From a virus (Duplodnaviria > Caudoviricetes): a stretch of 64,000 bases of DNA. The position numbers were made by a program, and so were the translations under genes. The notes beneath the pieces are model-generated. The model was not told where the DNA came from and searched no databases. It saw nothing but the letters and a program-made list of their open reading frames with translations. Numbering within the stretch: position 1 is the first letter of the stretch; each line of letters starts with the position of its first letter. Positions 33,396 through 41,627 of the stretch are shown here, piece after piece. The stretch spans positions 128,001-192,000 of the IMG/VR virus record IMGVR_UViG_3300050156_000143; one strand, 5' to 3'.

Positions 33396-34282
33396 CATGC
33401 TAGGAGAGCAATGGCTTCCACATACACCAATTTCCAATACTTTTGGAACGCCTCTCTTTCACGATGGTTCAAACGGTTGAATGAAAATTTGCCAAACTTT
33501 GATCTGAAATTGATATTGAAAAATTTGAGAATCTGGGACTCAATCGCATCATAAAGTTCTTTGCCACGTTGCACGTCTTCTGCTACCGCAATCGCTATCT
33601 CATGTGCATAGGCCGATATCTCCATTGGGGCGGCATAATATGCCAACTTTGTCTTCCTAGTTTCTTCCTCGGTTCTAGCTGGGGTTAACCCATGAAAGTA
33701 TCCTGGGAAAACTTTGGTGTCATATTGCAGTCCAGGATTGTTCATATTTTGATAAGCGTGAACCAACTCGTGGATAAACACTTTGGAAAGCTCTGTTATC
33801 TCCAATGCCATGTCTAGATGGCGCAATCGTGAAATGGCAATTTGATACGCCACGAGTTCGGTTTCTACCGACAGATCATCGTTTAGTGCATTGATGTGGT
33901 TCGCTGTGGACTTCACCGTTTTATCCAAAATGTCGAACAGATAGGTCTCTGATATTTTTATTTTGCGACCAATGTATAGCGACACATTCCCCTCTTTGAA
34001 TTCAACCCCTTTTGCAAAATCACCACATATTTGCTCGAACCGGTTGGTCAATTTCGTAGACAAGGTTTTATCCAAGGTGCCCTCCATTAGCATTTTAAAG
34101 TGATCAAACAGCGTGTAGTTGGGGTATTTTCCATTAGCGATGTGCTGCAAATCTGGGGAATTTTCTTGAAATTTGGCCAATACTTGCGCCACACTTTGCT
34201 GGTATCCGTCGATGACGTCTTCCACAGTCGTCTTGAAATATTTCCCAACTGATATTGACTCAGTAATAGTGTTAATGTGCAT
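33395..34282 (-). CDS. Zincin-like metallopeptidase, putative head-packaged; start 34282 (MHINTITES)
   Basis: FIHELVHAYQ plus YYAAPMEISAYA; TAAATA-TGGG-ATG. Confidence 0.75.
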   Translation of the reverse strand: MHINTITESISVGKYFKTTVEDVIDGYQQSVAQVLAKFQENSPDLQHIANGKYPNYTLFDHFKMLMEGTLDKTLSTKLTNRFEQICGDFAKGVEFKEGNVSLYIGRKIKISETYLFDILDKTVKSTANHINALNDDLSVETELVAYQIAISRLRHLDMALEITELSKVFIHELVHAYQNMNNPGLQYDTKVFPGYFHGLTPARTEEETRKTKLAYYAAPMEISAYAHEIAIAVAEDVQRGKELYDAIESQILKFFNINFRSKFGKFSFNRLNHREREAFQKYWKLVYVEAIALLA

Positions 34283-34329
34283 CCCATATTTAATTTGCAC
34301 AGTGTAGTAAATCGTGGCACAATCGTGGG

Positions 34330-34548
34330 ATGAATTATTCCCATAGTGAACGCCACAGTATTTTCAGAAAGTTGATCGATCCTCGAACCCACGAGATTTG
34401 GTACTGTGATAACATCAGACGCATCAAGACGGTGGAGGAAGTAGACTTCATTTGGGTCTACAAACCAGACAAGCCCCACCGAACAAACTTGATGCGAAAA
34501 GGTTACTTTTTTGAAAAACTTACCGAGGACTTGAAAAATGGATATTGA
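34330..34548 (+). CDS. Small conserved hypothetical protein
   Basis: E.WYC......K.VEEV.F..V....R..LMRK. Confidence 0.6.
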   Translation: MNYSHSERHSIFRKLIDPRTHEIWYCDNIRRIKTVEEVDFIWVYKPDKPHRTNLMRKGYFFEKLTEDLKNGY

Positions 34549-34906
34549 ACAAATTGTTCCAGATATTGTTTTTGTGCGAGTATTTAAACACATTTATACT
34601 GAAGATGGCGAAACCGGGATTGAATATGTTGCTGGCTTCGACTTGTGGCAGTTCCCAGACCACATCGATCAAGCATCTGATGTAATGGAACACCCTGATA
34701 CCAAACATATGTTCATCGTGTCGGGAATTGTGACCGATACTGCATATGAAACTGCTTGTCAAGCCGCGCACGCAGGATACATGATGTATAGTGCTGTTCA
34801 TGATGAGGTATCAGTGATCGACGAAAATGACGAAACCGTTGAATCATATTCAATGTCAGATTTACTCGATGATGAAGAAATACCGGCAGAAAGAACGTTG
34901 CACTAA
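34538..34906 (+). CDS. Acidic hypothetical protein
   Basis: Coupled ORF. Confidence 0.6.
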   Translation: MDIEQIVPDIVFVRVFKHIYTEDGETGIEYVAGFDLWQFPDHIDQASDVMEHPDTKHMFIVSGIVTDTAYETACQAAHAGYMMYSAVHDEVSVIDENDETVESYSMSDLLDDEEIPAERTLH

Positions 34907-34952
34907 CGTCAAAACGGTGGTGGGTAAAAAAACGGTGGTGGATAAATAATTG

Positions 34953-35669
34953 ATGACAAAAATTCCGAAATCTGATATGTTACGCGACGCTAATCGGTTG
35001 TATTACCATGTATCACCTTTGCCAAAATTTACAGGAAATCGGCAAGACAGCATTTCGGAAGTTAATCTCATTTTGGATGAATTGCAAACCAGACAGTCAG
35101 AAAGTGATTTACCCATACCCGAGTATCGTACATTGGTGAGGTTGATTGCTCGGTATGAACGCATGCTCCAAGCCTTGGAATCTGGTGGCAGAGCATTTGG
35201 CAACAATGCGGGCATTGGTTCCACATCGTTTTATGCAACTTCTCAGCCAGAGTTTTGGCAATCTGTTCAGGAAGATGAACTCGGCGTTGACTACAGTAGA
35301 GGTGGAATATATGCGATCATCTTGAAACGCCCGAGGACTGAACGAATGGTGCCAGCAGGTATGGGAACATTGGCACCAGAAGTTTCGGTATCACTGTCCA
35401 ATGTGCAGACAATCTTGGGGCCGTTTAAGACGACAACTCAAGCGGATACGGCGATCAACCACAATAAAATTACACGTGGTAGTGCGGTTCCAGTCACGCC
35501 CGGACACAATACATCCGGTAAGAAAGTCATCACCGACCCAGACGAAAGAATGAAATATGCAACCTGGGGCCAATTGTTCGCAATGATTGATGGAATAGAG
35601 CACCGTGTTCCGCGTGGGGCATTGGATGATGATTTTGACCCGGTGATCCAAACCCACATCAAAACGTAG
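34953..35669 (+). CDS. Late protein, possibly ART-like
   Basis: TAAATA-N4-ATG; LYYHVSP and SFYATS..W resemble ART strands 1 and 2. Confidence 0.55.
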   Translation: MTKIPKSDMLRDANRLYYHVSPLPKFTGNRQDSISEVNLILDELQTRQSESDLPIPEYRTLVRLIARYERMLQALESGGRAFGNNAGIGSTSFYATSQPEFWQSVQEDELGVDYSRGGIYAIILKRPRTERMVPAGMGTLAPEVSVSLSNVQTILGPFKTTTQADTAINHNKITRGSAVPVTPGHNTSGKKVITDPDERMKYATWGQLFAMIDGIEHRVPRGALDDDFDPVIQTHIKT

Positions 35670-35719
35670 AAAGACCAACTTGGTGATGTGGGTATTGGCA
35701 TGTTGAACAAAACTGCTGC

Positions 35720-35755
35720 TACACTGCATTCACTGCACTGACGCAGACAACTTTT
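35720..35755 (+). repeat. 36-bp promoter/leader repeat, copy 2
   Basis: Near-identical to 32652-32687; extended -10 TGCTACACT. Confidence 0.8.
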
Positions 35756-35766
35756 TAGGAAACAGC

Positions 35767-35925
35767 ATGAAATACGTTTATGTAGCCACCAAGGGCGGCG
35801 AGGTGTTTTACTTTTTGAGTGACTCGCTCGACCCTGCCACCCACCAACTTTGGCTGCGTAATCCTCAAACCCTGTATGGCGTGGAGAGTTCGATCTTCGC
35901 GCCGGGCGTGAAAGAGGGGGCGTGA
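35767..35925 (+). pseudogene. Chimeric 52-aa ORF: phage N-terminus fused to the C-terminal tip of a BrxR-like WYL regulator
   Basis: MKYVYVATKGGEVFYFLS followed by DSLDPATHQLWLRNPQTLYGVESSIFAPG, resembling BrxR C-termini; stop overlaps the brxA start (GTGA). Confidence 0.6.
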
Positions 35926-36518
35926 TCGTGAGCCTCTATAACGCTGAAATCACTGCTGGCTCTTTGTTAGTGCCCGAGAGCCGCCGCATTGCGCGGCTGC
36001 TACTCACCCACCCAACGGCTGAGCAGTGGGACGAGGCCATGAAGCAGCAAAACCTGTTGCAAAAGTCGCCCGCCACTGCACAACGACAAGCACGCCTGAT
36101 TCGCAACCGGCTGGCAACGCTAGACGATGAGGGTCTACAGCTTGTCTCCGAAGGCGACGGCGAGATTACGGGGCAGGTATTGCTCGCTGCGGCTGCCCAG
36201 CACAGTCAATTGCTGAGTGACTTCATGCGCGATGTGTATGCGGCTGACCTGCGTCGCCTTGAGCGCACCTTAAGCCATCGGCAGTGGGAAGCCTTCCTCA
36301 CCGAATGCGAGCACCGTGACGCCAGCGTCGGCACCTGGGCCGATACGACCTGCAAAAAGCTCTTTCAGGTCATCGTCCGAATGCTGGTTGAAGCCAAGTT
36401 CCTCGATAGCTCACGGCGCATGGCACTCACGCCGCCCATGCTTCACCCTAAGGTTCGCGCCTACCTGATACGGCTGGGTGCTGAAAAAACGCTCGCCCGC
36501 ATGGAAACCACCGCATGA
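35922..36518 (+). CDS. brxA: BREX protein BrxA (DUF1819), full length
   Basis: YNAEITAGSLLVPESRRIA.LL..NLLQK.SPATA.R.A.LIR.RL..W...T.KKL.QVI.RML.EA; visibly higher GC than the flanks. Confidence 0.9.
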   Translation: MIVSLYNAEITAGSLLVPESRRIARLLLTHPTAEQWDEAMKQQNLLQKSPATAQRQARLIRNRLATLDDEGLQLVSEGDGEITGQVLLAAAAQHSQLLSDFMRDVYAADLRRLERTLSHRQWEAFLTECEHRDASVGTWADTTCKKLFQVIVRMLVEAKFLDSSRRMALTPPMLHPKVRAYLIRLGAEKTLARMETTA

Positions 36519-36781
36519 AAACGTCTTTTGAAGAACGCCTGAATCAGGTTCTGCCTCGGTTGGCATCGCCGGACGTGCTGGACAACCTGGGCGCTGGTGG
36601 CGAGATTGGTTTTTGGATCTTCGACTACCCGACTCCATCCGAGTTGGCGATGTTATGCGATCTGGAAACGTTCCAACCATCTGAGGGAGACCCGGATCAT
36701 TACACATTTGACGACAATGTGGACTTGACGGTGGCTGGATTTAATTTCAGTTCACCCGACGAGTTTGAATCGGATTTCTGA
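36515..36781 (+). pseudogene. brxB: Truncated BrxB (about 39 N-terminal aa) fused to unrelated sequence
   Basis: FEERLNQVLPRL.S..L.N.G.GGEIGFWIFDYP then loss of similarity; 88 aa versus about 200 aa for intact BrxB. Confidence 0.8.
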
Positions 36782-36826
36782 TCCCCCCACCGTTAATTAA
36801 ATATTCACTTCACGATAGGAATCACA

Positions 36827-36976
36827 ATGTTCAAAACGATTTTCACCATTATTTTCGCCACTTTTGCCATCACCGGTATCACCAAACCCGTGTCAGACGG
36901 GGAATGCGGCAAGAATGGAGCACCTTGTATGCAGCATGAGCCAAAATGTACTCCAGAAAGTTGTTCGTCAAAATGA
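36827..36976 (+). CDS. 49-aa Cys-rich peptide with hydrophobic N-terminus (not in ORF track)
   Basis: AGGA RBS; MFKTIFTIIFATFAITGITKPVSDGECGKNGAPCMQHEPKCTPESCSSK; followed by a terminator. Confidence 0.55.
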   Translation: MFKTIFTIIFATFAITGITKPVSDGECGKNGAPCMQHEPKCTPESCSSK

Positions 36977-36989
36977 TGCAATACAGTTG

Positions 36990-37015
36990 AAAAAAGCGGC
37001 CTAGGCCGCTTTTTT
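36990..37015. terminator. Intrinsic terminator (CTAG loop)
   Basis: aaaaaagcggc-ctag-gccgctttttt. Confidence 0.85.
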
Positions 37016-37034
37016 CTTGTCTTATAAATACCAA

Positions 37035-37715
37035 ATGCGATTACATGAAATAGTTGATACTGCGTATAAGGTGACAAAAACAAATGGACAACACGATTTG
37101 CCAAAGATGATCGACAACCTTATGGCAAACGCCAACACGGAGCAAGCTGGAGTGTATGCACAAGGCTCACAAACCTCTGATCCATTCGTGTATCAAAAGA
37201 AGAATTTCTTGCCTTCTGAGTTAAAAAATGATGGGTATTTCAACTATATTAGAGCAATTAACCCCCACATAAAGAGTAACCCGTTTTTTCCACGAGTTTA
37301 CATGGTGGAACTCGATGTTGATGCCGATGGGCTGAAAGTTCCCCGATATGAAATGGAAAAGTTACTTAAACCGTCGCACGTCGGTCAAGAGGCCGTCATG
37401 GGTTTAGCTCAAAATCTAATTCACGGGTTTTCACTACGAGACAATAGTTTAGAAAACATGTGGGGGTACTTGGTGAAACTATTGGCACGATACGTCTGTG
37501 GCGACACTTCAATTGCCGAATATTTCACCTCAACGAAGCTGAAGCAGGCATTGGATTTAATTAAGCAGACTTTGGCAAGCAATAAAAACTTTAAGTGTGA
37601 TATTCACACCAACAATTGCATGGTTCGCATGACCAAATTTGGCCCACAACTTGTGATCACCGATCCGATTGAGGATCGCGTTAGTCGCATATCCAGTAGA
37701 CCCACGATTCATTGA
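37035..37715 (+). CDS. Protein kinase-like enzyme, putative head-packaged; start 37035 (MRLHE)
   Basis: G.YA, NPFFPRVY, YEMEKL, CDIHTNNCMVR, VITDP; TAAATA-N4-ATG. Confidence 0.75.
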   Translation: MRLHEIVDTAYKVTKTNGQHDLPKMIDNLMANANTEQAGVYAQGSQTSDPFVYQKKNFLPSELKNDGYFNYIRAINPHIKSNPFFPRVYMVELDVDADGLKVPRYEMEKLLKPSHVGQEAVMGLAQNLIHGFSLRDNSLENMWGYLVKLLARYVCGDTSIAEYFTSTKLKQALDLIKQTLASNKNFKCDIHTNNCMVRMTKFGPQLVITDPIEDRVSRISSRPTIH

Positions 37716-37798
37716 CCACATGTTTTAGTCAGGTACAAGGCACATTTCTCCACTGGGTGCTATGATTGCGTCATCGTAACCCAACCGAATAAACCACC

Positions 37799-38197
37799 AT
37801 GATCAACATGAAGCACGCCACCTTGACCGCCATTCTTGGGATCGCAGCGGTGACCGCGCCGTTTGTGCAATACGTGCCGAGCACTCACCTAGCATCCAAG
37901 ACGGTTAACGGTGAATTTGTGTTCTTCCCTCCTAACACCATTTCCATCAGTACGGAACACCTGAATTATTACGAGTTGACTGACATCGACGCGGTGACGT
38001 TTACCAAAAACAAACGAACATACGTGCTATCTATTCGGTGTGAAACGTGTGACCTGTCCGCACATGACATTGAGTTGCTCGCAACGGTGTTGCGCCAGCC
38101 TGATGTGTCTTACGAAAAACTGATGGCGTTGAACAGCAAATTGGACTCTTCGATCTTGACGGAACAAGTGCCCGACAATGGCCCTGCATTGTTGTAA
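37799..38197 (+). CDS. Hypothetical protein with signal peptide
   Basis: N-terminal hydrophobic stretch; extended -10 TGCTATGAT upstream. Confidence 0.6.
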   Translation: MINMKHATLTAILGIAAVTAPFVQYVPSTHLASKTVNGEFVFFPPNTISISTEHLNYYELTDIDAVTFTKNKRTYVLSIRCETCDLSAHDIELLATVLRQPDVSYEKLMALNSKLDSSILTEQVPDNGPALL

Positions 38198-38819
38198 AAC
38201 ACTACCGAAAACATTGTATGTTGCGTTTAGTGGAGGAGTTGATTCAGTGGTGTTGGCCACATTGGCTCTCAAACTCAAGCGCAACGTGCGGCTAGCGTTT
38301 TTTCATCATGGAAACGCTTACGCAGACGTTGAATACCAGTTTGCACAACAATTTGCTACCCAGCGTGGTCTCCATCTTGAGGTGGCGGGTATGCCAACCG
38401 TGGTGCGCAATCGTGAACACGAATGGCGCCACGCTAGATATGAGTTTTTTCAATCGTTGCCCCATCCTGTTGCCACTGGGCATCATTTGGATGATGCAGT
38501 GGAATGGTATCTGATGACTTGCCTCAAGGGAGAAGGACACTATATGTTGTATCAAAACAACAACGTGTTCAGGCCCATGTTGCTACAACGTAAAGAAACG
38601 ATTCAGCATTATGCTGAAGAAAATGGTCTAACGTGGATCGACGATCCATCCAACCATGATGTAGACTTTGCCACTCGCAACCGAGTAAGACACCTTTTGC
38701 TACCACAGTGCCTGGAAATCAATCCAGGTCTGCATGAAACCGTGCGCCGCCACATTCGCAACAAAATTCACCCACCGAAGGACTCCACATGTTTGAACTC
38801 ATCGTGCTTGCAACCTTGA
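38178..38819 (+). CDS. tilS: TilS-like PP-loop ATP pyrophosphatase (catalytic domain only)
   Basis: VAFSGGVDS, R..RY.FF, ATGHHLDD..E..LM, RPML, WI.DPSN..RNR.R. Confidence 0.85.
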   Translation: MALHCCKTLPKTLYVAFSGGVDSVVLATLALKLKRNVRLAFFHHGNAYADVEYQFAQQFATQRGLHLEVAGMPTVVRNREHEWRHARYEFFQSLPHPVATGHHLDDAVEWYLMTCLKGEGHYMLYQNNNVFRPMLLQRKETIQHYAEENGLTWIDDPSNHDVDFATRNRVRHLLLPQCLEINPGLHETVRRHIRNKIHPPKDSTCLNSSCLQP

Positions 38820-38968
38820 TCCGCCCGGTCGATAACACACCTCCACGTGAAGTCAGGATGACGCACTTAGCCACTTCTGCTGAAAACTGTGAAAAGGTGA
38901 AGCAACAATTGATTTCCAAGTTGGGCAATCGTTACCAAATCAATTCCGCAATTTGCAAGAAAGTGTGA
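38789..38968 (+). CDS. Small hypothetical protein (59 aa)
   Basis: AAGGA RBS, hand-translated open frame. Confidence 0.4.
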   Translation: MFELIVLATLIRPVDNTPPREVRMTHLATSAENCEKVKQQLISKLGNRYQINSAICKKV

Positions 38969-38972
38969 CCAC

Positions 38973-39359
38973 ATGAAAGCGATTCATTATGCTTGGGCCT
39001 GGTTGATTAACAACGGTCTCACGGGCGCAAAGTTTGACTACTACATGGGGGAACCAACTCGAAAATCCAACAGCGAAGCCACGTTTCGTAGACTACAAGC
39101 ACAGAGTAAGTCTGATATTTCCAAAATTGGCGTGGATTGGGATAAAACTTCTCATCCATTTTTGGAGTCGTTCTCTGAGTTTACCGATACCAATTCCCCA
39201 CCAGCCACCAAATACGGCATTTCTGGTGCAATCCGGTTGAAAAACGGTGAGGTGCAACATTGGATCGCATCGGCGCCTGACCCGATGGAACTATTTTCTC
39301 ACGTGGCTGACAATGAACATCTAACAACCGTGGCCAAAACCTTGTTCGGCGAAATTTGA
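38973..39359 (+). CDS. Hypothetical protein
   Basis: ORF in operon. Confidence 0.6.
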   Translation: MKAIHYAWAWLINNGLTGAKFDYYMGEPTRKSNSEATFRRLQAQSKSDISKIGVDWDKTSHPFLESFSEFTDTNSPPATKYGISGAIRLKNGEVQHWIASAPDPMELFSHVADNEHLTTVAKTLFGEI

Positions 39360-39845: not shown

Positions 39846-39891
39846 TGGGTAAGTTATAAGGGCCATGCTGGCCCTTATTTTGGGAGTAAGT

Positions 39892-40824
39892 ATGATCCTC
39901 ATTGGTTCTGCCGCATTTGCGCAGTTTGATTTGTCTGTTGTTTCCACTGACATTGATCTAGTCGGGTCTTATCAAGAGATTTACAAACTGAAAGCCAAGT
40001 TGCGTCCAAAGTTGTTTTACCCGACTTCAAACGGTGATAAGATTTTCATGCGTTTGAAAACAGGTGAGATTTATGACTTGGAAATAGCTTGGCCCAACGG
40101 CATGGGTGAAAAGTTGGTCAAGTTCATTCAACAATATCCCCACTCTTGCACAAAAATTGAATTGCACGGGTTTCAGGTCGATGTTCCTGGGATCAATTTG
40201 CAATTGTTGCTCAAGATGTCCCACCGGTATAAGAAAAATTCCGCCCACTTTTTGAAGACCATGCGGCATATTCACCGTCTTCGCAATTTGGGGGCAATTA
40301 TTCCACCAGAATGGCAGGACTACTATCACAACAGAATGGCAGACACTTATTCGTATCACCATCCAAATCTATCGGTGTCCAAGACCGATTTTTTCAATGT
40401 GGATTACACGGGTGTTCCACAGGTTTACGACCATGACAGTATTCATGAAGTTGTCGCCATTGATGGGAAACCTGCCTACCTGCATTACAAGATTCCTGGA
40501 CAAGAGGTGCAGTGTTCCAAAGACCTGTTCTATTCAGTTCCAGCATCCACTAGAATCAATGGAGTAGTGGAGGAAGCAATGGTTCTAGCGCTAGAGAGAT
40601 CGATAGTCCCCTATCCCGGCGCCATGACTGATGACCAGGCGTTCACCAAGGCGTTGGAAAAGGTTTGCACTTCCATCACATCCGGGTGGTTCCGTGAATT
40701 TGCGTGGGAGCATTATGATGCGGCATTGAGCAAATTCCACCTTTTGCAAACCGACTCGCCATTATCTGAAAAGTTTAACCAAGCTGTGATTAACGGCACA
40801 GTCAAAATGAAGGAAACTATATGA
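39892..40824 (+). CDS. Nucleotidyltransferase-like phage protein (start 39892)
   Basis: LIGSAA..DIDL at the N-terminus; YDHDSIHE.VA; GGAG RBS after a hairpin terminator. Confidence 0.65.
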   Translation: MILIGSAAFAQFDLSVVSTDIDLVGSYQEIYKLKAKLRPKLFYPTSNGDKIFMRLKTGEIYDLEIAWPNGMGEKLVKFIQQYPHSCTKIELHGFQVDVPGINLQLLLKMSHRYKKNSAHFLKTMRHIHRLRNLGAIIPPEWQDYYHNRMADTYSYHHPNLSVSKTDFFNVDYTGVPQVYDHDSIHEVVAIDGKPAYLHYKIPGQEVQCSKDLFYSVPASTRINGVVEEAMVLALERSIVPYPGAMTDDQAFTKALEKVCTSITSGWFREFAWEHYDAALSKFHLLQTDSPLSEKFNQAVINGTVKMKETI

Positions 40825-41627
40825 AAGATGCTCTTGGCGACCGTATGAAAATGTACGAACAACGTGAGGCGCACCGGTTGTGCCCGTTGCTGCCCGTGAT
40901 TGCCAGAGTGGATGGACGGTCATTTCACAGCTTCACCAAAGGCATGAAACGCCCGTTTGACAAAGAATTCACCAATGCGATGATTGCGACTACCATCGGA
41001 CTGGTGAAGGAAACTGGCGCATGTATTGGCTACACCCAAAGTGACGAAATCACTTTGATTTGGCATTCAACTGACATCCGTAGTCAGATATGGTTTGATT
41101 GCCGTGTGCAAAAGATGGTCAGTCAACTTGGCGCACAAGCTACTCTTATGTTTTACCGAGAGTGTTTGGCCAATTTCCCCCAGTTTGCAGGCAGGATGCC
41201 AACCTTTGATGCGCGAGTGTGGTCTGTGCCGAATCAAACTGAGGCATGCAACGTTTTGTTGTGGCGCGAATGGGATGCAACAAAAAACAGCTTGACGATG
41301 GCTGCGAGTGAACATTTCAGCCACAAAGACCTGATGAATAAAAACAGCAAAGCCAAACATGACATGTTGCACAGCGTCGGGGTAAACTGGAATGATTACC
41401 CCGTGGCGTTTAAACGTGGCACATATGTTCAACGCATGGTGAAAGAACTTGCATACACCGCGTCGGAATTGTGTGCATTACCGCCAAAACATAAGGCGCG
41501 TAGTGATCCAACCATGAAGGTTATGCGGTCAGTGGTGGAAGCAATTGATATGCCGATTTTTAGCAAAGTGCTCAATAAAGATGCTGTTGTTTTTCTCGGT
41601 GCCAGCCCAATAACAGACGGAGCTTAA
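40821..41627 (+). CDS. thg1: tRNA-His guanylyltransferase (Thg1/TLP)
   Basis: ARVDGRSFHSFT, YTQSDEITL, FDAR, WR..DA.KNS, KRGT. Confidence 0.92.
   Translation: MKDALGDRMKMYEQREAHRLCPLLPVIARVDGRSFHSFTKGMKRPFDKEFTNAMIATTIGLVKETGACIGYTQSDEITLIWHSTDIRSQIWFDCRVQKMVSQLGAQATLMFYRECLANFPQFAGRMPTFDARVWSVPNQTEACNVLLWREWDATKNSLTMAASEHFSHKDLMNKNSKAKHDMLHSVGVNWNDYPVAFKRGTYVQRMVKELAYTASELCALPPKHKARSDPTMKVMRSVVEAIDMPIFSKVLNKDAVVFLGASPITDGA

What the first reader, a model, noticed from the sequence alone, without database searches (positions are those of the whole stretch)
35720..36781. Phage has captured a host BREX fragment ('brxR-brxA-brxB') and placed intact brxA behind a phage promoter
Seen: a GC-richer stretch of about 810 bp encoding a BrxR-like C-terminal tip, complete BrxA and the first ~39 aa of BrxB, in native order. 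The left end is fused in frame to a phage-like N-terminus downstream of the repeated promoter element, and its stop overlaps the brxA start (GTGA), so brxA should be translationally coupled. GACTC occurs near both junctions (35821-35825 and 36631-36635); the exact right junction could lie up to ~30 bp further on. Known: BREX needs multi-subunit complexes and BrxA is a DNA-binding subunit. Inference: excess BrxA, with or without the BrxB stub, could poison host BREX, giving an anti-defence built from the defence system itself. It could also be a recent neutral illegitimate-recombination event.
Basis: partly seen in the sequence, partly recalled or inferred. Interest (0 to 1): 0.85.

Follow-up and report, generated by a model that had tools for sequence, protein, structure and literature searches.

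The report
Jumbo phage carrying captured host brxA
A 277-kb uncultured phage has very recently picked up an 810-bp piece of a bacterial BREX anti-phage operon holding one complete gene (brxA), inserted in a small phage gene that close relatives still have intact; it may let the phage jam BREX, but nothing yet shows it is more than a fresh accident.

Summary
Window 35822-36631 (810 bp, GC 0.60 against 0.449 for the genome, the only such island in 277.5 kb) matches type I BREX operons of Burkholderiales. It holds the last ~33 codons of brxR, a full-length brxA and the first 39 codons of brxB, in native order.

It is not an assembly chimera. An independent 1,291-bp contig from the source sample bridges both junctions, and a contig from a second sample bridges the right one.

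I found the empty site. Two contigs of relative phages (L025, L026) are 94-95% identical up to exactly 35825, then continue as an intact 119-aa phage gene. The insertion therefore split that gene at an ACTC/GACTC microhomology.

Short contigs about 100% identical to brxA occur in a freshwater sample that lacks the phage flanks, so the capture is recent and intactness says nothing about selection. No other phage with a solitary brxA was found.

The anti-BREX idea is plausible, because purified BrxA binds BrxC and blocks its DNA binding (PMC13326643), but it is untested. Odds: neutral recent passenger about 0.47, anti-BREX about 0.38.

The parts
35720..35752 (+). 33-nt phage-specific repeated upstream element (candidate promoter or 5' leader). 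It is followed by AGGAAA and the ATG of ORF1.
   Evidence: There are 8 copies in the 277-kb genome, with 0-5 mismatches, each 13-20 nt upstream of the start of a 52-188-aa gene. A TTGACA-like hexamer lies 18-20 nt upstream. The sigma-70 scan gives no hit. The element is identical in relatives L025/L026.
35767..35925 (+). Chimeric ORF1 (52 aa): the first ~20 codons of phage gene 'gpX' (35767-35825) fused in frame to the last ~33 codons of brxR.
   Evidence: The N-terminus MKYVYVATKGGEVFYFL(S/G)DS is shared with the intact 119-aa gpX of L025/L026. The C-terminal part is in the frame of the L008 BrxR gene. Pfam and PADLOC give no hit.
35822..36631 (+). Donor-derived BREX fragment, 810 bp (brxR 3' tip, brxA, brxB 5' stub). 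ACTC at 35822-35825 is shared by the phage target and the donor, so the left breakpoint is ambiguous over 4 nt.
   Evidence: blastn gives 80.9% identity over 831 bp to the Rubrivivax MAG locus L008 and 80.5-80.9% to L023/L024. Identity to the relative phages ends at 35825. Cellular brxB contigs diverge at 36630/36631. It is the only GC island in the genome.
35922..36518 (+). brxA: complete, 198 aa, GTG start, native GAGGGGG Shine-Dalgarno 5-10 nt upstream.
   Evidence: PF08849 2e-55; PADLOC 3.7e-92; 7ZGE 9e-25. It is 85-86% aa identical to the nearest cellular BrxA. All invariant columns are kept.
35911..35925 (+). G-run with a +1 nt relative to the native sequence. This creates the TGA that overlaps the brxA GTG (GTGA).
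   Evidence: All four cellular loci lack this nucleotide. The X2 variant has a 1-nt deletion at 35916. In native loci brxR ends 20 nt inside brxA.
36515..36781 (+). Chimeric ORF3 (88 aa): BrxB residues 1-39 fused in frame to a 49-aa acidic tail of phage-like composition. The tail may be the diverged remainder of gpX.
   Evidence: PADLOC BrxB profile 1-53 of 193. The ATGA overlap with the brxA stop is as in native operons. Removing 35826-36636 restores a 67-aa frame...FLSDS|SELAML..., like gpX ...FLGDS|SAPVSML.... The tail-to-gpX similarity is weak (shuffle p = 0.048).
36631..36635 (+). Right-junction GACTC, a repeat of the phage target pentamer at 35821-35825.
   Evidence: Finding ACTC exactly at an independently defined breakpoint has a chance of about 1 in 256.
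36827..36976 (+). 49-aa ORF with a hydrophobic N-terminus and five Cys residues. It is the last gene of the cassette and is absent from the relative phages' contigs.
   Evidence: Pfam gives no hit. X3 gives almost no cover over 36653-36987. The L026 continuation has no match in this genome.
36989..37016 (.). Palindromic bidirectional intrinsic terminator that closes the transcription unit.
   Evidence: 12-bp stem followed by a T-run. There are 9 copies in the genome.

Best explanation
This is a genuine and very recent capture of host DNA.

How it arose (inferred from the junctions): during infection of a Burkholderiales host, a microhomology-guided illegitimate recombination or template switch occurred. 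The phage left its own sequence at ...GTGACTC, joined the host BREX operon at ACTC near the 3' end of brxR, copied 810 bp, and returned to the phage at G|ACTC. This inserted brxR-tip/brxA/brxB-stub into codon 20-21 of a small dispensable accessory gene, gpX (119 aa and intact in relatives).

What follows from its position: the fragment lies in sense inside an ordinary phage transcription unit. That unit runs from a 33-nt repeated upstream element through ORF1, brxA, ORF3 and a 49-aa ORF to a repeated terminator. brxA keeps its own Shine-Dalgarno sequence, so a host-type BrxA is probably made during infection (inferred, not shown).

My committed reading: the insert is so young that it has not been shaped by selection. 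brxA is intact because it is new, the two chimeric stubs are by-products, and the allele is a polymorphic, neutral or nearly neutral passenger in a cassette locus that this phage group swaps freely.

If it does anything, the most likely effect is the one given as the first rival: surplus BrxA acting on BrxC.
For: Real, not chimeric: a Logan contig of 1,291 bp from the source sample covers 35726-37016 with 0 differences, at depth 40 against 57 and 48 in the flanks. A 902-bp contig from a second sample and study covers 36115-37016 with 1 difference.

Empty site: L025 and L026 are 93.8% and 94.9% identical to the window up to exactly 35825, then continue as an intact 119-aa gene. The same continuation is seen as loose ends in runs X2 and X3.

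Host origin and direction: native operon order with both neighbours cut, the only GC island in the genome, and nearest relatives that are all cellular BREX loci of Burkholderiales.

Recency: three freshwater contigs (X7) have 0-1 differences over 501 nt of brxA with no cover of the phage flanks. X6, X7 and X8 hold 39-44% of the insert's words and about none of the flank words. GC3 is 0.68 against 0.45 in phage genes.

No sign of recurrence: there is no BrxA of this clade in IMG/VR. The GenBank 'phage' hits checked are a whole BREX locus (H1) and a BrxA-BrxB-BrxC fragment running off the end of the record (H4). H3 is a Salmonella genome record and H5 is a short unannotated fragment.

Cassette locus: 865 bp of L026 downstream of the breakpoint has no counterpart in this genome. 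The unit is bounded by 8-copy and 9-copy repeats.

The sequence just before the brxA start differs by a 1-nt indel between the two insert-bearing variants.
Against: The content looks non-random. The fragment holds exactly one complete gene of a defence system, in sense orientation, with its ribosome-binding site, inside a phage transcription unit. My rough estimate for a random 0.8-kb host fragment doing this is about 1 in 1000.

The insert-bearing allele dominates the source sample. It also appears in a second sample, where the adjacent flanks seem to be of a 1.5-3% diverged haplotype while the cassette differs by 0.1%. That hints at spread by recombination, but contigs drop variants, so it is not proven.

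Published biochemistry gives surplus BrxA a plausible inhibitory effect (PMC13326643).
Confidence: 0.47

Rival explanations
1. Nascent anti-BREX factor made from the defence system's own subunit. The phage expresses a BrxA that is near-identical to its host's. The surplus BrxA binds BrxC and keeps it off DNA, or otherwise shifts the balance between competing BREX assemblies. This lowers restriction of the unmethylated phage genome, or favours its methylation. The BrxR tip and BrxB stub are inert by-products.
For: Purified Acinetobacter BrxA binds BrxC in pull-downs and reduces BrxC's DNA binding, alone and together with BrxB:PglZ and PglX (PMC13326643, read). BrxC is already the target of the known phage inhibitor OrbA (PMC11580459). 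brxA is complete with all invariant residues, lies in sense, has its own SD, and sits in a phage unit behind an element that precedes 7 other small genes. The fragment is centred on brxA, with 100 nt upstream and 113 nt downstream. The allele is seen in two samples, possibly on two backgrounds. Precedents exist for hijacking a defence component: the PhiTE toxI capture (PMC3475682) and viral solitary CRISPR repeats (PMC10651486).
Against: There is no expression data and no functional test. The capture is too young for a selection signature, and close relatives lack it. No other phage with a solitary brxA was found. BrxA is dispensable for restriction in E. coli HS BREX (PMC9122589, PMC12839542), so its leverage varies by system. 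A wild-type copy only changes the dose; it is not a defective dominant-negative. The BrxA-BrxC interaction was weak, with no co-elution on SEC. BrxA did not co-purify with the Salmonella BREX complex (PMC12205998).
Confidence: 0.38
2. Captured BrxA serves the phage in a way unrelated to BREX. It could act as a small two-HTH DNA-binding protein used on phage or host DNA, or as a regulator.
For: BrxA binds dsDNA through two HTH motifs (PMC9240713). A regulatory role for BrxA has been suggested (PMC12839542).
Against: Nothing in the locus points to such a role. The protein is host-identical and newly arrived, and relatives manage without it.
Confidence: 0.1
3. Assembly chimera: bacterial BREX reads were wrongly joined into a phage contig.
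For: The cassette is bounded by short repeats (33-nt element, 28-nt terminator) that break assembly graphs. Bacterial BREX homologues are present in the same samples.
Against: Both junctions lie inside unique sequence of a single 1,291-bp contig made by a different assembler, at phage-like depth. The right junction is reproduced in a second sample. The 74 unique bases 35752-35825 are joined to the left flank in L025/L026 and to the insert in the window. Both ends are in-frame fusions at a shared pentamer.
Confidence: 0.03

Closest known systems
Type I BREX BrxA (Pfam PF08849/DUF1819; E. fergusonii BrxA, PDB 7ZGE)
   Same: Full-length member of the family: 198 aa, both HTH lobes covered, all family-invariant residues present, 85-86% identical to cellular BrxA of Burkholderiales.
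   Different: It is solitary. There is no brxC, pglX, pglZ or brxL, and only stubs of brxR and brxB. It is encoded in a lytic-type jumbo phage genome inside a phage transcription unit.
PhiTE 'hijack' of the ToxI antitoxin from the host toxIN locus (Blower et al. 2012, PMC3475682)
   Same: A phage acquires, by recombination with host DNA, a component of the very defence system that restricts it, and expresses it.
   Different: There the captured part is the system's natural inhibitor (an RNA antitoxin) and its function was shown by escape genetics. Here the part is a protein subunit whose surplus effect is only inferred.
Viral solitary CRISPR repeat units / RNA anti-CRISPRs (Camara-Wilpert et al. 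2023, PMC10651486)
   Same: A stand-alone copy of a defence component behind a viral promoter competes for partner subunits and forms non-productive sub-complexes in a dose-dependent way. This is the mode of action proposed here.
   Different: That component is RNA rather than protein. It is widespread and recurrent in viruses and has been tested experimentally; this case is a single untested occurrence.
Known anti-BREX factors: T7 Ocr (PMC7261183), T3 SAM lyase (10.1101/2023.02.27.530186), ICP1 OrbA acting on BrxC (PMC11580459)
   Same: Candidate phage-encoded BREX inhibitor. As with OrbA, the presumed target is BrxC.
   Different: There is no sequence or fold relation to any of them. It would be the first inhibitor derived from a BREX subunit itself.
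Morons and host-gene captures in phage genomes by illegitimate recombination
   Same: Foreign-composition DNA flanked by microhomology, inserted between phage expression signals, and polymorphic among close relatives.
   Different: The cargo is a piece of an anti-phage operon rather than a metabolic or lysogenic-conversion gene. It split a phage gene and produced two in-frame chimeras.

Membership tests
BrxA (PF08849, DUF1819) | Full-length match to the family profile above the curated threshold | tested here: met
   187.8 bits against a cut-off of 23, profile 3-182 of 184. PADLOC 305.6 bits, profile 5-200 of 201.
BrxA (PF08849, DUF1819) | Sequence relation to a solved BrxA structure over its whole length | tested here: met
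   7ZGE, 9e-25, residues 4-197 against 4-198; 3BHW, 4e-35. No structure was predicted here.
BrxA (PF08849, DUF1819) | Family-invariant residues retained | tested here: met
   All 47 columns that are invariant in the 16-sequence alignment are shared by the phage protein.
BrxA (PF08849, DUF1819) | dsDNA binding and BrxC binding | not testable with these tools
   Known for E. fergusonii and Acinetobacter BrxA (PMC9240713, PMC13326643). Here it is inferred from homology only.
Type I BREX system (functional locus) | Presence of BrxC, PglX and PglZ (and BrxL) next to BrxA/BrxB | tested here: not met
   The window holds only brxA plus stubs. The insert is the only host-like island in the genome. The cellular relatives L008, L023 and L024 do carry BrxB and BrxC, and L008 also carries PglX.
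BrxR (wHTH-WYL-WCX regulator) | wHTH and WYL domains | tested here: not met
   Only about 33 C-terminal codons are present in the phage, and Pfam/PADLOC give no hit for ORF1. The full cellular gene is a BrxR (7QFZ 8e-80).
BrxB (PF08747) | Inactive-STAND core (Pfam domain, residues ~69-190) | tested here: not met
   Only residues 1-39 are present. Pfam gives no hit, and PADLOC matches profile 1-53 of 193 only.
Phage anti-defence gene (anti-BREX) | Relieves BREX restriction when expressed | not testable with these tools
Phage anti-defence gene (anti-BREX) | Recurrence or conservation in phages, or a signature of selection | tested here: not met
   None in IMG/VR (which used only two motif patterns) and none genuine in GenBank phages. 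It is absent from the closest relatives. It is too young for dN/dS.
Phage anti-defence gene (anti-BREX) | Expressed during infection | tested here: inconclusive
   It lies in sense within a phage unit with an SD, a repeated upstream element and a terminator. No sigma-70 promoter was found by scan.

The most novel reading that the evidence does not exclude
The phage disarms type I BREX with the system's own subunit. A freshly captured, host-identical BrxA is over-produced from a phage transcription unit, titrates BrxC off DNA and blocks the switch to the restrictive state. This would be the first anti-BREX factor derived from BREX itself, caught in nature at the moment of its birth, with insert-bearing and insert-less alleles still co-circulating.
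Probability: 0.38. Interest if true: 0.82.

Novelty: new member of a known kind. Interest (0 to 1): 0.55.

Why it matters
Two things make this more than a curiosity.

First, it is a cleanly resolved natural example of how a phage acquires host defence DNA. Both breakpoints are mapped to the base, a 4-5-nt microhomology lies at each, the empty-site allele is in hand, near-identical donor-type DNA occurs in other samples, and the population is still polymorphic.

Second, the role of BrxA is an open question in BREX biology. It is essential in some systems and dispensable in others, and it was recently shown to inhibit BrxC's DNA binding. This phage suggests a simple, directly testable experiment: over-dose BrxA and measure restriction and methylation.

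If surplus BrxA disables BREX, that would reveal a regulatory weak point of a very common defence system. It would also add 'subunit overdose' to the known anti-defence strategies. If it does not, the locus remains a well-documented neutral capture.

Tried and rejected
**Searches for relatives that found nothing**
- Megablast and blastn of the locus against 50,697 GenBank phages gave no match.
- IMG/VR scans with four flanking proteins gave none.
- tblastn of the flanking proteins against GenBank phages gave only a remote Stenotrophomonas jumbo-phage hit.
- Exact look-up of the BrxA protein found nothing on record apart from the window's own.

**Tests of the split gene**
- I searched the genome for paralogues of ORF1's N-terminus and ORF3's tail, to test an 'interrupted family member' idea. 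None were found.
- The 30-mer of the alternative allele was not found in viral contigs or metagenome contigs. The allele was then found through the upstream protein's homologue.
- Searches with the ORF3 tail in both collections gave nothing; some searches were coordinate or length slips.
- The similarity of the tail to gpX is only borderline (shuffle p = 0.048). I therefore do not claim that the tail is the old gene's remainder.

**Other blanks**
- NCBIfam gave no hit for any of the three ORFs.
- No RNA holder is listed among the sequencing runs.
Their habitats are not used as evidence, except for the word arithmetic on X6 and X8.

**Analyses not run**
- dN/dS: the near-identity to non-phage DNA makes it uninformative.
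- Structure and complex prediction: family membership is unambiguous by sequence, and a BrxA-BrxC co-fold would not separate the neutral reading from the adaptive one.

- I rejected the idea that the right junction lies up to 30 bp further on. The 13 of 21 matches over 36632-36652 look like chance, and three independent cellular brxB contigs part from the phage at 36630/36631.

Full report
**What the window is.** The window is bases 128001-192000 of a 277,516-bp IMG/VR virus record with direct terminal repeats. Earlier notes of this scan describe it as a T4-like jumbo phage from leaf litter. The genome averages 44.9% GC.

**The observation.** Between about 35800 and 36600 the GC content rises to 0.57-0.605. 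In 400-bp windows this is the only stretch of the whole genome that reaches 0.56; the maximum of 0.615 is more than 5 sd above the mean. Three overlapping ORFs cover it.
- The middle ORF (35922-36518, 198 aa) is a full-length BrxA: Pfam PF08849 at 2e-55 covering 3-182 of 184, PADLOC at 3.7e-92, and PDB 7ZGE at 9e-25 end to end. It keeps every column that is invariant among 15 cellular BrxA proteins.
- The third ORF (36515-36781) begins with the N-terminus of BrxB (PADLOC profile 1-53 of 193).
- The first ORF (35767-35925) ends with about 33 codons that are in the same frame as, and homologous to, the end of the gene upstream of brxA in cellular loci. That gene is a true BrxR (PDB 7QFZ at 8e-80, 7T8K at 1e-21, Pfam WYL).
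- The best cellular match, a Rubrivivax MAG (L008), reads BrxR-BrxA-BrxB-BrxC-PglX. The phage piece is therefore a slice of a type I BREX operon in native order.

**Junctions and the empty site.** blastn against the cellular loci places the homology at 35822-36652 (80.9% over 831 bp). The upstream phage protein (34950-35669) has a 93% identical homologue on a JGI contig.
- That contig (L025) and a second one (L026) are 93.8% and 94.9% identical to the window up to exactly 35825, the end of a GACTC, and unrelated beyond it.
- In both contigs the gene that starts like ORF1 (MKYVYVATKGGEVFYFLGDS...) runs on as an intact 119-aa protein with a C-terminal CxxC...CxxC motif. The BREX piece therefore split a pre-existing small phage gene, which I call gpX, at codon 20-21.
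- On the right side, contigs of cellular brxB from three metagenomes all part from the phage at 36630/36631, which is the first base of a second GACTC.
- ACTC at 35822-35825 is shared by the phage target and the donor-type sequence. The simplest model is an 810-bp donor fragment (35822-36631) joined through a 4-nt microhomology on the left and a 1-nt microhomology on the right. That is the signature of illegitimate recombination or template switching (inference).
- Removing 35826-36636 restores a continuous 67-aa frame whose join resembles gpX. The tail's similarity to gpX is only borderline, however (p = 0.048).
- The rest of L026 (865 bp: the gpX remainder plus two small genes) has no counterpart anywhere in this genome. 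The whole stretch 35826-36986 therefore differs between this phage and its known relatives.
- The unit is bounded by a 33-nt element present 8 times and a palindromic terminator present 9 times. It looks like a swappable cassette locus.

**Not a chimera.** Logan contigs, made by a different assembler, were laid on the locus.
- In the probable source sample, one 1,291-bp contig covers 35726-37016 with no difference, at depth 40 against 57 and 48 in the flanks. It bridges both junctions.
- In a second sample from another study (X2), a 902-bp contig covers 36115-37016 with one difference.
- X2 also holds the gpX-type allele, and X3 holds only that allele.
- The insertion is therefore a real polymorphism in a natural phage population.

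**Age.** The nearest assembled cellular relatives are only 81% identical in DNA and 84-86% in protein, and all sit in BREX loci.
- Run X7 (freshwater) nevertheless contains three short contigs with 0-1 differences over 501 nt of brxA and nothing from 4.7 kb of phage flank.
- X6, X7 and X8 hold 39-44% of the insert's sampled 31-mers and practically none of the flank words.
- Near-identical brxA DNA thus exists outside this phage, most simply in the unsampled donor lineage.
- Together with the un-ameliorated composition (GC3 of 0.68 against 0.45 for phage genes), this dates the capture as recent.
- The consequence is important: the intactness of brxA carries no information about selection.

**Expression context.** brxA lies in sense. 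It is preceded by its native GAGGGGG Shine-Dalgarno sequence, and no terminator lies between the upstream element and 36989.
- The 33-nt element sits 13-20 nt before the start codons of eight small genes and follows a TTGACA-like hexamer. A sigma-70 consensus scan finds no promoter there, so 'promoter' remains an inference.
It results from one extra base in a G-run that all four cellular loci lack, and the X2 variant lacks it too. In native operons brxR ends 20 nt inside brxA.

**Function.** Published work shows the following.
- BrxA is a small two-HTH dsDNA-binding protein (PMC9240713).
- It is required for methylation and restriction in Acinetobacter and reportedly Salmonella BREX, but is dispensable in E. 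coli HS (PMC9122589, PMC12839542).
- Most relevant here, purified BrxA binds BrxC and reduces BrxC's binding to DNA, alone and in the presence of BrxB:PglZ and PglX (PMC13326643).
- BrxC is also the target of the vibriophage inhibitor OrbA (PMC11580459).

A surplus of host-type BrxA could therefore plausibly damp BREX. The 39-residue BrxB stub lacks the whole Pfam BrxB domain and the BrxR tip lacks wHTH and WYL, so I regard both as by-products.

Against an evolved function:
- No other phage with a solitary brxA was found. IMG/VR gave none (with a limited pattern set). The GenBank 'phage' hits I examined are BREX loci or fragments of them, and the others are a Salmonella genome record and a short unannotated fragment.
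- The closest relatives lack the insert, and the allele is too young for any test of selection.

For it: the fragment's content is improbably neat for a random 0.8-kb piece of a bacterial genome. In X2 the cassette (0.1% diverged) also seems to lie between flanks of a 1.5-3% diverged haplotype. That would mean the cassette has moved between phage backgrounds, but contigs drop variants, so this is only a hint.

**Verdict.**
- The capture is real, recent and mapped to the base.
- The anti-BREX interpretation is mechanistically credible but unsupported by any comparative or expression evidence.
- My odds are: neutral recent passenger 0.47, nascent anti-BREX factor 0.38, other use 0.10, artefact 0.03.
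- In kind it is a new member of a known class, host-DNA capture by a phage, with precedents for hijacked defence components in PhiTE/ToxI (PMC3475682) and viral solitary CRISPR repeats (PMC10651486).
- If the BrxA-overdose reading proves true, it would be the first BREX inhibitor built from BREX itself and a handle on BrxA's unresolved role.

Noticed in passing
window 36989-37016, and 8 other places in the genome: The palindromic bidirectional terminator GAAAAAAGCGGCCTAGGCCGCTTTTTTC occurs 9 times in the 277-kb genome with 0-3 mismatches. Together with the 8-copy 33-nt upstream element, it breaks independent assemblies and may act as a recombination substrate for cassette swapping.
   Followed up: partly
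window 37023-37030: TATAAATA, resembling a T4-type late promoter, lies directly after the terminator and before the 232-aa gene at about 37017-37715. That gene has a remote homologue in Stenotrophomonas jumbo phages CM1 and RAS14.
   Followed up: no
L026:609-1473 (relative phage contig, JGI 3300050154): The relative phage carries the remainder of a 119-aa zinc-ribbon-like gene plus two small genes (63 and 76 aa). These have no DNA or protein counterpart anywhere in this phage genome, so the locus holds alternative gene cassettes behind a conserved promoter-like element and a conserved 20-codon N-terminus.
   Followed up: partly
window 33500-39000 in run X2: In the second sample the flanks next to the cassette appear only as a 1.5-3% diverged haplotype shared with X3 and L025, while the insert-bearing cassette differs by 1 base in 902. 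This could mean the cassette has transferred between phage strains by recombination.
   Followed up: partly
window 38178-38819, 39865-40824, 40821-41627: The neighbouring genes encode a PP-loop ATPase (PF01171, 6e-31), a DUF7275/DUF7277 protein and a Thg1-like tRNA-His guanylyltransferase (PF04446, 4e-27). This is a small nucleic-acid or tRNA-modification cluster downstream of the cassette.
   Followed up: no
GenBank CAKLQH020000045.1 (L027) and MT838999.1 (L028): Both records are filed as 'Acinetobacter phage MD-2021a' and 'Bacteriophage sp.'. L027 carries a BREX locus from BrxA to PglX with IS transposases next to it. L028 is a 4.7-kb unverified fragment holding BrxA-BrxB-BrxC. Both look like cellular DNA filed under phage names.
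   Followed up: yes
window 34925: The X2 variant lacks 18 nt at 34925, in the spacer between the 122-aa and 239-aa genes. This is another small indel polymorphism between the strains.
   Followed up: no
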